A stretch of 64,000 bases of DNA, taken from the NCBI GenBank assembly GCA_000165425.1, contig CT868263.1, positions 434,001-498,000 on the forward strand, written 5' to 3'. The notes under the pieces were generated by a model that was not told the origin of the DNA, searched no databases, and saw only the letters and a program-made list of their open reading frames with translations. Below, one piece after another: positions 43,231 to 64,000 of this stretch; the stretch's first letter is position 1, and every line of letters starts with the position of its first letter. The stretch comes from Paramecium tetraurelia (taxonomy: Eukaryota). The translations under genes and the position numbers were made by a program.

Positions 43231-44796
43231 TCAATTAAAGATTGTATTAATTTGATAAAAGATTGGAATACTCTTATCTTAATCTTCTATTTATTTCTTC
43301 AAGTGATGCATATGAGATAAAATAGTAAAATCTTCATCTGATAACATTTCAACTTACTTTAATGGCTCAATGGTTTCTGGTTGATTTTTGTTATTTTAAG
43401 GAACAGTAATTTCATTCTTCTCATCTTTACTTTTTTCAGATGATTTCAAAAATACTTTTGGGGCATTAATTGATCCTTCATTGAAATCAATTTAATACGA
43501 TTGATTTAAGATATTATTATTCCCTAGCCGTATACCTACAAAATGACTCTGTCTAAAAGCTTATTTTGATTGAATAGATTATAAAATAAATTAAATCCTT
43601 GAGACTTCATATATTTAATTAAGTAGAGTTAATTTTTCTTTTGTAAAATCCTTTAATTGTTCATAAAACCTTATAAAAGAAGCTGTATCTAGTATTTACT
43701 TACCATTCTTGGAAGCACTAGTTATTTAACCAAAAAGGTTACTTTGAAATTAAATTTACTACAGTTCTGGGTAATAATAAGTAATTATTGTCTTTAATAG
43801 TGTATCTTCTAAAATTTTTGAGTTTACTTAGATGACTATCAATTTTAGCATCATAAGAGTGGACATGATAGAACCTACATCTGCAAGAATCTCACCTAAT
43901 TTAGGATAGATAATTTATTGGGTTTCAGACAAACTATCTATTCCAATCAAGAACACTCCAAGATATTTATTTCCAAAACTTTATTGAAAGTTACTCTAAG
44001 GTAATTATTATGATGTGGTTTGAAAATCACTAATAAGTTTTTAATTCTTGATTGATTCTAAAAAGAAACCTGTATCAGTAATTGATGTTGTTATTTTGAA
44101 TAATAATTAAGTGTACAAAGCAGTTTCTCTATCCAAAATAAAGTAGATTTATTTAGAAATCATTTCAAAATCTTTCAATTTTGTGTTGTATTACTGCATC
44201 TATATGGTTAAGAAAAATGTGTTTAAAGGCTGTTTGAAAAATTCTTCTTGTTTTTCCTAATTTGCACAATTATCATATTGAGAACTGTCACATTATTCAA
44301 ATAAGATCATCAACTGCCTTTAACTTTTAGGAGTGTCTTGGCTCAAACCTTATTGATTAAGAACCAAAGTTATATCTTGAGGAGTAATGGAAGTTGAAAT
44401 TCCACTTCTTGTAGGAGGTACTCCAGAATCTAACATTAATTACTTTTTAGAAATCACAATGTCATCAACATAGGAAAAATAAGGTGTAATGATATTTTCA
44501 GTTTTGGAAAAAGGATCAATAAATTTATCTCCACTCATTCCTACAACTTAAAAAATAATCGGATTATATTCAAAAGATACGTCAGCATAATTTTGTGTTG
44601 TCTTTTGAATTGAAACTCTTGGTAAAATATCTCCATTTAACCAAAGAAACAATTTATAAAATAAATACACCATACTCAAGGTATACAATAAAAGAGATGT
44701 TATTCCGCCAAATACACTTTTAAATTGTTTTTCATTCTTAAATATCTCTTATTAATAAGACACTCCAAATTAATCAAACCTCTTCAAAAAGTTCAT
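43231..44796 (-). CDS. Two-TM protein with a large loop (ciliate-expanded family)
   Basis: MNFLKRFDQFG...KSVFGGITSLLLYTLSMVYF (TM1) and YPKLGEILADVGSIM (TM2); intronless, 1566 nt. Confidence 0.8.
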
Positions 44797-45086
44797 TTCC
44801 CTAGATTATTAAAATAATTTTTATTATAGTTATAGATTTTATATTTTAGTATAAATCATTTAATTGTATCTACTAAAAATAAAGAATCCCACTTATCACA
44901 CATTTAGCTCATAAAACTTACTCAAATTTCATGTATCAAAAATGAAGTATCCACTCAAGATCACCAAAGTCATTAATATTTTGGTTATTCGAGAATATAA
45001 AGTCAACGTTAATATTTATAAATAAAAAGAAGAGTTTTTCTAGAATATTAGAGAATATTAGCTTTGTTAATTAAAATATCATAAAA

Positions 45087-57161: not shown

Positions 57162-58583
57162 TCAATTTTATTTTATTAATAATTCTAAAGGTTCTATGTG
57201 AACCACTTTATTTTACGTCTATTCAAATGAATCAAAAGGATAGACCATCATTTAATTAGATTCTTTCATATTTATAGTTTCAAACAGATTCTCAGAAATC
57301 AACCCTCCAAAAGTATGACAAAATTAAAATGCTTAATTCCCTAATTGCTATTGAAAAACAAATTATAATCTAGATATCTCATATAATATATTGTTTAACC
57401 TACATTTTTATTTAGCCCCTTTTTATAACATTTTATAAGCTGAACTTACACTTTATTTTGGAGATTTAGTTTTTTCTTTATGATTGAACTTTATTTGATT
57501 AAATCGATCTAATTGTAATTCTTTAAATTCTGGATAATACATCGTTATGATATCATGAGTTTATTAATTTTCAAATAATTATTTATTATAGTACACAGCA
57601 AAATATTATAAGATAAAAATCAATTAAACTATCGATCCTATTTAAGCTAATATTTAACCTAATTTAGGCATAATTACATTTTCAACTATAGAAATATTGT
57701 CAATTCTAAATAAATAAGAATTTATTGCACTTACTTTATACTATCCTTTAGACATAAAATAAATTTAGGATGTCATAAAATCAATATCTACTGATTAATT
57801 TGTAATTTCATAATTATTCAAGAAAAAATAATGTCTGAGCTTATCGAAAAGAATTCCATCATCAATTATAGTTTCCTATTATTTTAACATAACCTAAGAA
57901 TAAATTGTTCTTCTTGGATCAAAAGCAGAATAGAATTATTTTTCAAACGATTCTAGTTCTCTTGTAACATAATTTAATTGATGTAGCTTAATTGTGATAA
58001 ACAGAAATCCATGATCATTTTATATGTATTGTTATATTTCATTAGCATCTGCACAAGTTATCCCTTTTATATTTAATTCATCTGAACACATCACAAAAGT
58101 TAGCAAATATTGTTTCATTTCTTTATGTATTTCATCCTTTCCATATACATTATTCAAAATTAGTGATCCTTCCTCAACTTAAAACTATCTGGGGTGGTCT
58201 TCTGTGCTATACAATAACATAGGTTAATCTTCGATCCTGCTATCAAGAATGGTAAATAATAAGGGAGTAATAAAGTTCTTTTCTTTTCTAAAAGGATCAA
58301 TATCTGAGGAAAAGTCATATAAACTAAATGTGATTAATGGTTCAGACCATGCAAATTCTGAATATCCAGTTGTTTGTTACTTTGCACTTACATTTGGAGG
58401 GACCTAATTATTTATCCATAAGATCATGATATAGAAAAAATAAGCCAAACTTGTGCTTCCTACTATTAGTGAAATAAATCCTCCTAATTTGCTTTTGAAC
58501 TTTGGTTCATTTTCGTTTGTTAATAAAGCTACAGGTACACCGAAGATATCTAATTTTTCTATTGAATCAATAATTTTATTCAT
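57162..58583 (-). CDS. Two-TM protein with a large loop (same family as 43231-44796)
   Basis: LDIFGVPV...FKSKLGGFISLIVGSTSLAYFFY (TM1) and MPKLGQILAQIGSIV (TM2); intronless, 1422 nt. Confidence 0.8.
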
Positions 58584-59960: not shown

Positions 59961-60880
59961 ATGTCAGACGATCCCAGATTCAAAATTGTTGAAGGAATAG
60001 ATGGAGATTATGTGATCATAGGGTTTCCTCATCATATAGGAGCCAAAAGAGACAATGTTCGAATTGGATAGGACCATGGACCTGATTCTTTAAGAAGATT
60101 CTTGCCTAGAATTGGTCCATTAAGGAATGCTGAATATATGAAAGATATTAGTAATTTTATAGTTTCGGATTATGGAAATATACATGTTGACGATGATTAA
60201 AATTTAGAAAAACTTTTGGAAAAATTGAATCAGAAAGTGAAAATTGTACACAATAAGAATCACATTCCAATTGTAATAGGAGGATCCAAGGATTGTGTTT
60301 TTGGTGTTCTTAGTGATGATTTGCATGTGATTTCAATTAATCATATTCCTGATATTCAAGTACCATATGATGGCAATAAACCAAGTATTAACTCAGGATT
60401 AAGAGCATCGACAAGTAAAATATCAATTACCTATTTTGGGTATGATAATAGCAAATTAAATTAAGAATAAGAAAATTATATAAATGAAAAATGTAATGGA
60501 ATTAGCTTATAGAAGATTAGGTAAGCATAGAAGGCATTTCATCAAGATCTGGAATAATAAGTTACACAGGCTGGAATTTTATTTAAATAAATACTTACAA
60601 ATCTTTAAGGGAAAAGAATTCATATTTCTATTTCTTTAGAAGCCATAGATGTATATCTTAATAATTATTATAGTCGGCTTTTTGTCCTGGAGTAAGCAGG
60701 CCTTGTGTGTAAGGCTTATAAGTAGAAGAAATATTTGAAATAGTTTATTTGGCAGGTAAATTTTGTGTTGGTTTGGATATTACTGATTATAATCCAACAA
60801 TTGAGGATTATCGTACAGGGTTTTTATTAGGAAATCTAATTTATTATTTTATTTTATCAAAAGGAAAGGATATTAAGTGA
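59961..60880 (+). CDS. Arginase/formiminoglutamase-fold (ureohydrolase) protein with degenerate metal ligands
   Basis: MSDDPR, VIIGFP, G..HGPDSLRR, SDYGNI, PIVIGG, HISISLEAIDSAFCPGVS, LDITDYNP; one intron at about 60651-60673. Confidence 0.85.
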
Positions 60881-60949
60881 TATTAATTTTTTGGTATAAA
60901 TTTCCCATAAATTATTCCAAATTAATTTATATATTAAAGAATTAAAATA

Positions 60950-62694
60950 ATGATTTAAAAGCATCCTCAAGTAATAACAGTTCTTTTAATTTCTGAAAAC
61001 GAAGAAAAAGTCTAGAATTTCATGAAACGAATAAATTCAAATAAGCTAGAAAATCAAGAGAGAACTATTAATCTTTATTATTAACCAATTGATTTAAATA
61101 ATGATCATAAATGCTTACAATAATTATCAATGTTTGAATATGCAATTCTCTTTTTGAAGGATTTAGAATTTCATTAATTCACTATGGACAACTATAATTT
61201 TAGAATGCTCAAATTACTGCAGTTTTATAAGTACATAATAAAAATTTAACTTTAGATATAAATAAATCTTTATTATTTATGATGAAAATGATAGTAATTC
61301 AAGTATTGCATAATTATAGAATCTATACTCTTGGATTGATCAAGAAGTTAATTCGATCTTCTATGACGAAAGATTTAACGATTAGCAAGAAGAAAACTAG
61401 CTAGGGTTTTCAATCCCTAAAATTAAAATCTTAAGTGAACCAACTCAGAATGATTTCATGGAATTTTTCAACGATGAAGCAGATATTAAAGATTCTGATT
61501 TAATCTTAGCAATCATTAATGAAACAGAGGTGAACAAAGGCATAGCATAAGTGATAGATGGATTCATTTTGAATGGATAAACTGTGCTTTATCAAGAATA
61601 AGTTGCATTATAAAAAGTATAAATTAAAAACTTTGTTGATTACTTTTCAAAATAAGAAAAGAATTTTGCATAAAAAGGAGATATTATTGAATTTTAATTT
61701 GATTTAAAAAAGAAAATAAATGGGCTTCTAATAGGATTAAGGTAAGATAAATATCTACTCCAACCTAAAGAAATCAAAGGTGATTTTATATGTCCATAGA
61801 TAGTGGGATAGGGTGGAATATAGAAAATCTAGAAATCAGATTCAAAGGCATTTTTTTATGGAATTGAATGTATATATTTTAATTACAATTAAAGGTTAGA
61901 TTGAGAAGAAAAAAATATTTGGATAATTAGAGAATGGTACTTATAAAGATTTCAAGAATATAACATCAAAACCATTTGGAATGTCATTTAGGATTAGTAA
62001 ACAACTTTACTTGACTCCAAACATACTTTAAAAGAATATAATTTTATCTATTCCCAAAAACAAGAATTTAACATAACAATAAATTTTTTGTGGAAAAATA
62101 AAGACTTAAGATATATTTTAAGTCACAAAAGTGCAGGTTCAAAAGAAAAAAGTAGTTTTAATTCCTGAATTGACAAGTATTCCATCAGAAAATATGATCA
62201 ACAATGGGGTGGACTATAGATAAAGATGTAGAGTGTGCAGAACTGAAAGGGCTAGATATGTTCCTACTAATTGTGGGCATCTAAGATATTGCAACGATTG
62301 TAAAGATATATGTATGGAAGCAAAACAGTGCTTATATTGCGATAAACCTAGCAATAACACTCAAAGTTTCAATATTCATCTTACAAAATAACAACTTTAA
62401 AATCTCAAATCAATGACTGAATAACAAATTATTGAATATTTTGCAAACCATCCTGATAAAGAAATGCTGCCTTTTATGAAAGTTTATAATGAAATTAACG
62501 ATGAATAGAACATTTATTTCGAAGTAAACTGCGACAACTGCGATTCAAGAATTACTCAATACTCTATTTGTATTAATAATCATTAAACACTACTTTGTGA
62601 TGAATGTTAAATAAAGGAATGTTAGGCATGCAAGGATCAATTACAAAATAAATAAAAAATTATCTTTACATTTCCAGATGATCCAACTGCATGA
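60950..62694 (+). CDS. Degenerate EF1A/eRF3/Hbs1-like fold fused to two C-terminal RING-like zinc fingers
   Basis: RING CRVC...NCGHLRYCNDC...CLYC and a second CDNC...C..NH...CDEC...CQAC. Upstream lie the beta-barrel-like motifs GIAQVIDGFILNGQTV and FAQKGDIIEF. Two micro-introns. Confidence 0.7.
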
Positions 62695-62884: not shown

Positions 62885-64000
62885 ATGAATATAGTTCTTA
62901 TAGCATTTTCAGAAGAATAACAAATATAAACAGCAGATAAATACCAATTTGCTTCCACATGCTATATAACATCTGATATTTACCAGCAATAAAAAGAATT
63001 ATGGAAATTTGATAAAGCTGTTGTTGTTCTTGATTAATTTCCTATAAATTTATCTAAATTAAATAAAGATGAACACCTAACAAACAGTTTAGATCCTAAT
63101 TTTTCACTATTTAAAACTCTCAAATTATTAGGGTAAAATTATTCTCTTATATTTTTAGTTATCAATAAGTTTTAGTTTCTTTGGAATAAATAAAATTATA
63201 AAAATACAAGCAGGCAATTTCATAATTAGAATAAACTATTATATCTATATTCAACGATTAAGAAAGAATAATTGAAGAAGAAAGAAATGTCTTTTCGCTT
63301 AAAAATCCAACCGTGAAAGTTGTGTAAAATTGTGAATAGAATGAAATTTAAAAATTCTTTCTTAATGAAATAAATTTAACTACAAATTAAATTGATTAAA
63401 CAGAATGTATTGTAGTGAGACATGAAGAAGCATTTCATATTGTTAAGGTTCTTTAAGGAGCATTATATGTAGGATAGTTTTTAAAATCGACCACATGTTA
63501 AGCCTGGATATAATAAGTAAAGATTAGTCCAGGAGGTGAAGGTAAAAAATAAAATAAACATAGTGTTTGTTAAATTTGAAGAGAATAAAATATTATAAGG
63601 AATATTATGTAGCTATCAACATTGTCCTGAATAAATTAATGCATTCGATGTTGAAATATAATTAAGTGAATTACCAATATTGCTTCCAAAAGATGTGTTT
63701 AGAAAAATGGGTTAACTTAAGATGATATTTTACAATCAGGAATATTTGATATAGAACAGCCATAATAGTCCAATTTAATTTTAGGGCATTAAAGATAAAA
63801 TAAATGGAAAAATAACTGAAAATCCAACAAAAGTTAATTTTGGTATATGCAAGTTAACACTAAAAATTATCCCAGAAGGGGAGAAAATACTGTTGAATAT
63901 TAATTCAAAGCCCATTGTTTAGTATTTTTTAAATATTAAATTAGTTTTCTTAATAATTATAATACAGTTGTTTTTTATGGACAAATTACAAATATATTAG
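62885..64000 (+). CDS. Probable paralogue of the preceding gene's N-terminal part (degenerate translation-factor-like fold); runs off the window end
   Basis: MNIVLIAF, FDKAVVVLD, LKLLGYQQVLVSL, VKVLQGALYVGQ, ...NTVVFYGQITNI; three micro-introns; no stop before 64000. Confidence 0.6.

What the first reader, a model, noticed from the sequence alone, without database searches (positions are those of the whole stretch)
60950..62694. Candidate new system: a P-loop-less EF1A/eRF3/Hbs1-like scaffold fused to two RING fingers
In order, the protein shows echoes of a translational GTPase. ITVLLIS resembles strand 1 but has no GxxxxGK. FEYAILFL resembles ADxAVLIV, and LLQFYKYKQIFII resembles LAxTLGVKQLIV. 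Domain II-like: GIAQVIDGFILNGQTV...VQIKNF...FAQKGDIIEF...INGLLIG (cf. GRVETGxLKPG...VKSVE...AxPGDNVGF...RGNV). Domain III-like end: NIILSI...IFCGKI. A C3HC4 RING and a second RING-like finger follow. Inference: a GTPase-dead translation-factor mimic that delivers ubiquitin-ligase activity to ribosomes, tRNA or release factors, which is intriguing in a lineage with reassigned stop codons. The similarity is remote and judged by eye.
Basis: inference. Interest (0 to 1): 0.75.

Follow-up and report, generated by a model that had tools for sequence, protein, structure and literature searches.

The report
Dead elongation-factor fold fused to RING
Paramecium has a small gene family whose proteins join the full three-domain body of a translation factor such as EF1A, stripped of its GTP switch, to ubiquitin-ligase-type zinc fingers; this pairing appears undescribed and may be a way to tag parts of the translation machinery with ubiquitin.

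Summary
Confirmed. Window 60950-62694 is a spliced, transcribed Paramecium tetraurelia gene (GSPATT00012872001, 564 aa), annotated only as RING-type. Two template-free AlphaFold2 models put residues 1-373 in the EF-Tu/EF1A/SelB three-domain fold (Foldseek E 1.5e-15; VIA-align Z 17-22 over 299-343 residues at 8-14% identity). A language-model search of a distant paralogue agrees. The P-loop, switch I, DxxG and NKxD motifs are missing in all 11 aligned members. A C3HC4 RING with invariant ligands follows, then a less certain RING-like finger. The fusion is real: one spliced contig spans it and one paralogue is a single intron-free frame. P. tetraurelia has five members, one in tandem; they share introns, and one pair shows dN/dS near 0.1. 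Every named relative is from Paramecium. Not shown: ligase activity, any partner, the donor subfamily, or a link to stop-codon reassignment. The body evolves fast and keeps no recognisable partner-binding motif. Best reading: a nucleotide-free translation-factor mimic serving as the targeting module of a RING E3 (about 0.5).

The parts
60950..62694 (+). Whole gene GSPATT00012872001, 564 aa, three exons, genetic code 6
60968..61469 (+). Degenerate G domain, residues 7-165: six strands and five helices of the GTPase fold; 3-residue loop in place of the P-loop; about 40 residues including switch I deleted; DxxG and NKxD absent
   Evidence: secondary structure; fold matches; motif scan; spacing against Paramecium EF1A
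61231..61255 (+). Intron 1 (25 nt, phase 2, before strand 5 of the G domain); same position and phase in 4 of the 5 P. tetraurelia members
61500..61760 (+). Domain II beta-barrel, residues 176-262 (EF-Tu domain-2 type; Gly196 invariant in 11 of 11)
61770..62100 (+). Domain III beta-barrel, residues 266-367, interrupted by intron 2; net charge +9
   Evidence: (eRF3 domains II-III, 3e20, Z 11.3 over model 175-373)
61870..61894 (+). Intron 2 (25 nt, phase 1, AAG acceptor); same position in the C75 and C78 paralogues
62227..62340 (+). C3HC4 RING finger, residues 410-447 (Pfam zf-C3HC4_3; closest solved sequences RNF123 and XIAP RINGs); all eight ligands invariant in 11 of 11
62530..62631 (+). Second eight-ligand zinc finger, residues 511-544, RING-like (weak XIAP-RING and Sina-RING matches); degenerate in one subfamily
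62885..64000 (+). Tandem paralogue GSPATT00012873001 (541 aa, same architecture, 28% identical); introns 63133-63158, 63542-63563, 63922-63944 are modelled; the gene ends about 580 bases beyond the window
   Evidence: low RNA depth

Best explanation
[quoted passage not shown] Shown or strongly supported: the three-domain fold, loss of all GTP motifs, fusion to an intact C3HC4 RING, expression, and a family under purifying selection. Inferred step 1: with no P-loop or switch I the body cannot cycle and stays in one shape, probably the compact 'GTP-like' one. Inferred step 2: like the known dead mimic Tsr1, it docks without GTP on a client of translational GTPases, that is the ribosome's factor-binding region, an A-site factor (eRF1, Pelota, tRNA-bound complexes) or a nascent or damaged chain. 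Inferred step 3: the RING, at the end of a ~40-residue low-confidence linker, recruits an E2 and ubiquitinates the client or neighbouring ribosomal proteins. It would do in one polypeptide what GCN1 with RNF14/RNF25 do in mammals. The paralogues keep the RING and vary the body, so they probably differ in client.
For: Fold: VIA ranks 1-14 are all three-domain EF1/SelB/eIF2-gamma-type factors, Z 16.6-21.8; all 10 rows shown for paralogue P0016 residues 1-352 carry EF-Tu-type Pfam families, scores 0.89-0.91. Dead G site. Compact arrangement: TM to target 0.55-0.63 against GTP, analogue or antibiotic-locked forms, 0.33-0.40 against GDP and EF-Ts forms. RING: over the Pfam cut-off in 6 of 7 proteins, ligands invariant, the most conserved part between paralogues (38-45% against 13-24% for the body). 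Selection: dN/dS 0.095 for the body and 0.12 for the fingers in the C75/C78 pair, dS near 2 and so approximate. Low transcript share, about 0.7-1.3e-5 of bases read, fits a catalytic or regulatory role. Prior: the trGTPase survey names only CysN and Snu114 as lacking ribosome or translation roles (PMC4342817, passage); Tsr1 is a dead mimic that binds pre-40S particles (PMC4895721, abstract and opening text).
Against: No partner or activity was observed. The body diverges fast: 62-72% between aurelia orthologues against 97-99% for EF1A, and 8-14% identity to solved factors. No invariant surface motif beyond a few residues survives across 11 members, which is hard to square with docking on a conserved ribosomal or eRF1 surface. 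Switch I, which contacts tRNA and ribosome in real factors (recalled), is deleted. The residue after the last RING cysteine is D, E, N, T or S, never the usual Arg/Lys 'linchpin' (criterion recalled). Model confidence is moderate (pLDDT 67, pTM 0.57), so the domain orientation may reflect a bias of the predictor. The family was found only in Paramecium.
Confidence: 0.5

Rival explanations
1. It is a RING E3 whose translation-factor body has been cut loose from translation and serves as a general protein-binding scaffold, for example for misfolded proteins, cytoskeleton or ciliate-specific substrates, building on side activities of EF1A.
For: Fast and even divergence of all three domains; at least four subfamilies with 13-24% identical bodies; eEF1A binds ubiquitinated new polypeptides and proteasomes (PMC4705825, passages).
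Against: All three domains and their order are kept in every full-length member examined, and the model is in the compact ligand-binding arrangement; a general scaffold would not obviously need this.
Confidence: 0.28
2. It is a decoy: an EF1A look-alike that catches symbiont, parasite or viral proteins aimed at EF1A-type factors and ubiquitinates them.
For: Lineage-restricted multigene family with a variable body and a conserved RING; tandem duplication; bacterial effectors that target eEF1A exist and Paramecium hosts intracellular bacteria (both recalled).
Against: No sign of positive selection in the one pair tested (dN/dS about 0.1); no alignable sequence likeness to the host's own EF1A makes a poor decoy; the subfamilies are stably orthologous across aurelia species.
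Confidence: 0.08
3. The RINGs are not catalytic (dimerisation or nucleic-acid binding), and the protein is a Tsr1-like steric blocker or assembly or hibernation factor that occupies the GTPase-binding site.
For: No cationic linchpin and no Pro before the last Cys pair; basic RING1 and domain III; the Tsr1 precedent.
Against: RING1 is the best-conserved part and is closest to the E3 RINGs of RNF123, which also lacks that Pro, and XIAP; the low transcript share argues against a stoichiometric ribosome cover.
Confidence: 0.1
4. The translation-factor fold is a prediction artefact, or the two halves are separate genes.
Against: The match grows stronger as the alignment deepens (Z 14 to 22); no templates were used; the language-model search points the same way for a 20%-identical paralogue; one spliced contig and an intron-free paralogue carry both halves.
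Confidence: 0.04

Closest known systems
EF1A / eRF3 / Hbs1 / GTPBP1 / SelB / EF-Tu / eIF2-gamma three-domain translational GTPases
   Same: G domain, domain II and domain III in the same order and packing; in-register sequence echoes in strand 4-helix-strand 5 and in domain II.
   Different: No G1-G4 motifs, switch I deleted, 8-14% identity, C-terminal RING and second zinc finger; the donor subfamily is unresolved.
[quoted passage not shown]
   Same: EF-Tu/SelB-like architecture without the residues for GTP binding and hydrolysis; the nearest precedent for a nucleotide-free mimic.
   Different: Tsr1 is a conserved 40S-biogenesis factor with no RING in the text seen. The pre-40S chains that I recall as Tsr1 and Bms1 score lower (Z 10.8-14.6) than the EF1/SelB group.
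Ski7 C-terminal domain (PMC4509514, abstract read)
   Same: A derived trGTPase body in the active-like conformation, without normal hydrolysis; Z 18.2.
   Different: Ski7 still binds GTP and has an N-terminal region that binds the exosome and Ski complex (PMC4933942, search listing); this protein starts at strand 1, has no P-loop and ends in zinc fingers.
RNF14/RNF25-GCN1 pathway (bioRxiv 2022.03.21.485216 and 2023.01.31.526456, abstracts read)
   Same: E3 ligases that ubiquitinate eEF1A, eRF1 and ribosomal proteins on stalled ribosomes: the functional analogue of the best reading.
   Different: They reach the ribosome through GCN1, not through a translation-factor fold of their own; no homology with them was tested.
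IAP / RNF123 / MUL1-type C3HC4_3 RING E3 ligases (Pfam PF13920)
   Same: RING1 ligand pattern and best PDB sequence hits (RNF123 E 9e-5, XIAP E 0.003).
   Different: No BIR or other known partner domain in Pfam scans; the RING is internal, lacks the cationic linchpin (recalled criterion) and is followed by a second finger.

Membership tests
Translational GTPases, EF-Tu/EF1/SelB branch | G domain followed by domain II and domain III beta-barrels | tested here: met
   Predicted models; Foldseek E 2.3e-11 and 1.5e-15, VIA Z up to 14.3 and 21.8 over model residues 1-374
Translational GTPases, EF-Tu/EF1/SelB branch | G1 P-loop GxxxxGK(S/T) | tested here: not met
   0 of 11 aligned members in the G domain (one chance match lies just before the RING of P0030), none in the C269 member; 3-residue loop in the model
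Translational GTPases, EF-Tu/EF1/SelB branch | Switch I / G2 region | tested here: not met
   20 residues from helix 1 to strand 3, against 63 in Paramecium EF1A
Translational GTPases, EF-Tu/EF1/SelB branch | G3 DxxG with catalytic His, and G4 NKxD after strand 5 | tested here: not met
   No DxxG or NKxD at the aligned positions in 11 members; stray matches elsewhere in 4 of 11; the focal protein reads DEND at G4
Translational GTPases, EF-Tu/EF1/SelB branch | GTP binding, ribosome-stimulated hydrolysis | not testable with these tools
   Needs biochemistry
EF1A/eRF3/Hbs1 clade specifically | Closer to this clade than to EF-Tu, eIF2-gamma, GTPBP or SelB | tested here: inconclusive
   hhalign 22.7 (shuffle maximum 15.8) for the EF1A clade, 19.3 (17.1) aIF2-gamma, 16.1 (16.4) EF-Tu, 15.4 (18.2) GTPBP, 14 shuffles each; no SelB profile could be built; top Z scores tied; no shared intron with the canonical factors inspected
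C3HC4 RING (PF13920) | Eight zinc ligands in RING-HC spacing, score over the Pfam cut-off | tested here: met
   27.2 bits against a cut-off of 27 for the focal protein; 6 of 7 over the cut-off; ligands invariant in 11 of 11
Active RING E3 ligases | Cationic linchpin after the last cysteine (criterion recalled; not universal) | tested here: not met
   D, E, N, T or S in 11 of 11
Active RING E3 ligases | E2-dependent ubiquitin transfer | not testable with these tools
   Needs an in vitro assay
RING (second finger) | Cross-brace RING fold with eight ligands | tested here: inconclusive
   Eight ligands invariant in 8 of 8 aligned pieces (subfamily d was not included and lacks two of them); best PDB hit XIAP RING E 0.04; Sina_RING E 6e-5 in 1 of 8 and weak B-box hits in 4 of 8; not folded alone
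Tsr1/Bms1 | Tsr1-type architecture and family signature | tested here: inconclusive
   Pre-40S and processome chains score Z 10.8-14.6, below the EF1/SelB group (chain identities recalled); no Pfam hit, but Pfam also misses the EF-Tu domains here
Ski7 | Retained GTP-binding site and N-terminal exosome/Ski-binding region | tested here: not met
   No P-loop; strand 1 begins at residue 7

The most novel reading that the evidence does not exclude
A class of E3 ligase that enters the ribosome's GTPase-binding site in the guise of a permanently 'on' elongation or release factor and ubiquitinates what it finds there, with the five paralogues specialised for different A-site clients (eRF1 paralogues, Pelota, tRNA-bound factors), possibly policing termination in a lineage where only UGA is stop.
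Probability: 0.2. Interest if true: 0.9.

Novelty: new variant of a known kind. Interest (0 to 1): 0.74.

Why it matters
Dead translational-GTPase mimics (Tsr1) and ribosome-acting E3 ligases (RNF14/RNF25) are each known. I found no description of the two joined in one protein: ten full-text searches (judged from listings and abstract openings) and the trGTPase survey PMC4342817, whose main text holds no 'RING', 'zinc' or 'ubiquitin' (supplements not seen). Databases call these proteins only 'RING-type domain-containing', and Pfam cannot see the 370-residue body. If the ligase acts on translation, Paramecium offers a one-protein, RNAi-tractable route to how factors at the GTPase centre are marked for removal. 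Even if the client lies elsewhere, it shows one of the most conserved folds in biology recycled as an E3 targeting module, and it suggests that more such proteins lie below sequence detection.

Tried and rejected
Sequence searches for the body found nothing named outside Paramecium. Pfam and PDB by sequence gave only RING hits. Word-index homologue searches gave 3, 3 and 4 Paramecium proteins. The ESM Atlas with the focal residues 1-395 gave only unnamed clusters at 0.75-0.76; the informative one search used a paralogue and the named-only filter, and its scores (0.89-0.91) are near the level that shuffled proteins reach 4-10 times in 100. hhalign of 7 against 6 sequences was not significant (E 0.24; local 17.9 against a shuffle maximum of 17.1, global nothing). 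An EF1A-clade HMM found no member significantly. A by-eye likeness of a domain-III hairpin of subfamily b to EF1A failed its test (within shuffles) and is rejected as evidence for the donor. Intron positions did not identify the donor. A SelB set could not be gathered (0 of 61 genomes). The metagenome scan gave one false RING-motif match (1 of 58 stretches). The viral structure library gave giant-virus trGTPases and separate RING proteins, with no evident fusion among the 50 rows shown. A complex prediction of the body with the M and C domains of a viral-contig eRF1 as stand-in gave no answer (score 0.00, alignments not used, controls not folded); it is evidence neither way, and the organism's own eRF1, Pelota and eEF1B were not tested. 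My first C78 gene model had wrong introns and was replaced. The C269 member was dropped by my filter and the tree, which therefore hold 11, 13 and 14 sequences. Own-genome RING hits C36 and C93 proved to be unrelated RING proteins; C690, C691, C678 and a second C269 hit matched mainly over the RING and were not modelled. No run holding the gene is on record as RNA; expression rests. Earlier scan notes held nothing on this gene.

Full report
The gene. The window is Paramecium tetraurelia macronuclear DNA read with code 6. The finding is one gene, 60950-62694 on the + strand, with 25-nt introns at 61231-61255 and 61870-61894. Both are left out in a single 1754-nt contig covering 60941-62744 without mismatches (run X3), and splicing them gives an open frame of 564 codons matching the database protein GSPATT00012872001. 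Three stranded oligo-dT runs show reads in one direction only, consistent with a + strand transcript, at depth 2-22 over 61351-62619 but only 0-2.7 over 60928-61350. That stretch is 20-23% GC and the reads are 58 nt, so bias is likely, but the raw reads do not prove the 5' exon.

The observation. Pfam and PDB sequence searches see only a C3HC4 RING at 408-451. Profile-profile comparison with shallow alignments was not significant. With 11 family bodies against 26 EF1A-clade sequences it gave 190 aligned columns, score 25.6, E 0.024, above all 30 block shuffles (maximum 17.5) and the reversed profile (10.8). This signal is fragile: it shrank to 59 columns with another alignment, and domain III was not detected.

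The fold. AlphaFold2 without templates gave mean pLDDT 58.8 with 7 sequences and 67.1 with 11. Both show a six-stranded alpha/beta domain at 7-165 and two beta-rich domains at 176-262 and 266-367. Foldseek against the PDB returned only translational GTPases in the rows shown, best E 2.3e-11 (Hbs1; 319 matches at E up to 0.001) and 1.5e-15 (archaeal EF1A with GTP; at least 500). The ESM Atlas gave nothing for the focal body (0.76, unnamed), but for residues 1-352 of the 20%-identical paralogue P0016 all 10 rows shown carried EF-Tu-type families at 0.89-0.91 (named clusters only). The better model fits compact GTP-type structures (TM to target 0.55-0.63) better than open GDP or EF-Ts forms (0.33-0.40); with pTM 0.57 this is suggestive only.

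The dead switch. Strand 1 is followed by three residues and then helix 1, with no Gly-Lys. Helix 1 to strand 3 spans 20 residues against 63 in Paramecium EF1A, so switch I is deleted. G3 and G4 read YYQPI and DEND, and strand 6 to helix 5 spans 16 residues against 34. No G1, G3 or G4 motif stands at the aligned place in any of 11 members or in the C269 member. This goes further than Ski7, which still binds GTP (PMC4509514, abstract), and resembles Tsr1, which lacks the residues for GTP binding (PMC4895721, abstract and opening text).

The fingers. RING1 passes the Pfam cut-off in 6 of 7 proteins, its eight ligands are invariant in 11 of 11, and its closest solved sequences are the RINGs of RNF123 and XIAP. 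It lacks the Pro before the last cysteine pair, as RNF123 does, and has D, E, N, T or S where many active RINGs have a basic linchpin (criterion recalled). The second finger has eight ligands invariant in 8 of 8 pieces aligned, with weak matches to the XIAP RING (E 0.04), Sina RING (1 of 8) and B-box (4 of 8). Subfamily d lacks two of the ligands. It was not folded alone.

The family. Twelve named full-length proteins from six Paramecium species, P. bursaria included, share the architecture. P. tetraurelia has five genes (this one, the tandem neighbour from 62885, and C269, C75, C78) and a domain-II-like relic at C424 whose flanks are 79-93% identical to those of C269. The C269 gene is one intron-free frame holding body and RING, which settles the fusion. 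Four of the five share a phase-2 intron before strand 5 and three share a phase-1 intron in domain III; the canonical factors inspected read through the first site in one frame. A tree of 14 rows (C269 left out) shows three well-supported aurelia subfamilies, plus the single subfamily-d row and two P. bursaria rows on long, unresolved branches. The C75/C78 pair gives dN/dS 0.095 for the body and 0.12 for the fingers, with dS near 2. Orthologues are 62-72% identical against 97-99% for EF1A, and paralogue bodies 13-24% against 38-45% for RING1. A profile search of 1.84 billion representatives gave 23 hits: 5 named Paramecium members, 6 unnamed fragments that look like members, and 12 matches confined to the RING region, of which the 4 I read are unrelated RING proteins. 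No named relative outside Paramecium appeared. At this divergence that does not show absence from other ciliates, but nothing ties the family to the variant code, which other ciliates share (recalled).

How it most likely works. Shown: fold, dead site, fusion, expression, selection. Inferred: a fixed, probably compact body that docks without GTP on a client of translational GTPases, and a RING on a flexible linker that brings an E2 to it (0.5). The prior comes from the survey of trGTPases, which names only CysN and Snu114 as lacking a ribosome or translation role (PMC4342817, passages), and from Tsr1. The functional analogue is RNF14/RNF25 with GCN1, which ubiquitinate eEF1A, eRF1 and ribosomal proteins on stalled ribosomes (two bioRxiv abstracts). 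Against it stand the fast divergence, the lack of conserved surface motifs, the deleted switch I and the missing linchpin. Rivals: a scaffold detached from translation, drawing on EF1A's binding of damaged chains (PMC4705825, passages; 0.28); a non-catalytic Tsr1-like blocker (0.10); a decoy for microbial effectors (0.08); artefact (0.04). The donor subfamily is open: profiles lean to the EF1A clade, and structure does not separate it from SelB or GTPBP1.

Novelty. It is not a member of any active trGTPase family, since G1-G4 fail, but it is built like one, and RING1 is a C3HC4 RING by ligands and Pfam score. Ten paper searches (listings and abstract openings only) showed no trGTPase-RING fusion and no mention of the gene id. 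The library lacks most subscription papers, and I saw no supplements; proteomic tables could list the gene. Earlier scan notes report other dead trGTPase copies, none with a RING in the text shown (unchecked). Verdict: a real and apparently undescribed architecture made of two known kinds of part, with function untested. Interest 0.74.

Noticed in passing
L017:1444-2781 (- strand; G000:C16; GSPATT00029500001): An intact single-frame 446-aa EF1A-like paralogue, 30% identical to EF1A, with altered G motifs (G1 GAHGQGKS, G3 NIPGQ without Asp or catalytic His, G4 INDMD without Lys) and no RING: a second, less decayed candidate pseudo-GTPase, annotated only as 'Tr-type G domain'.
   Followed up: partly
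L027 (G000:C424, about 427277-427504, - strand): Domain-II-like relic of the C269 family member, ending in a stop, with flanks 79-93% identical to the C269 locus: probably a decayed duplicate from the recent genome duplication.
   Followed up: partly
window 59961-60880: Upstream arginase-family gene (Pfam PF00491) with a 23-nt intron at 60651; all RNA reads of three runs show G for A at 60365 while the contig of another run does not, so a strain difference or editing is undecided.
   Followed up: no
L165-L171 (own genome): Three eRF1-type loci, one of them clearly divergent (C391), and one Pelota-type locus: possible distinct clients for the paralogues.
   Followed up: no
L173-L180 (own genome): Several GTPBP1/2-like loci, some divergent (C69, C402, C25, C86).
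   Followed up: no
L085-L098, L100, L133 (GTDB contigs): Short contigs in bacterial genome records that carry eukaryote-like EF1A genes at 67-79% identity to Paramecium EF1A; probably assembly contamination.
   Followed up: no
window 43231-44859 and 57162-58583 (- strand): Two similar-looking membrane proteins of a ciliate family; no Pfam hit for the one scanned.
   Followed up: no
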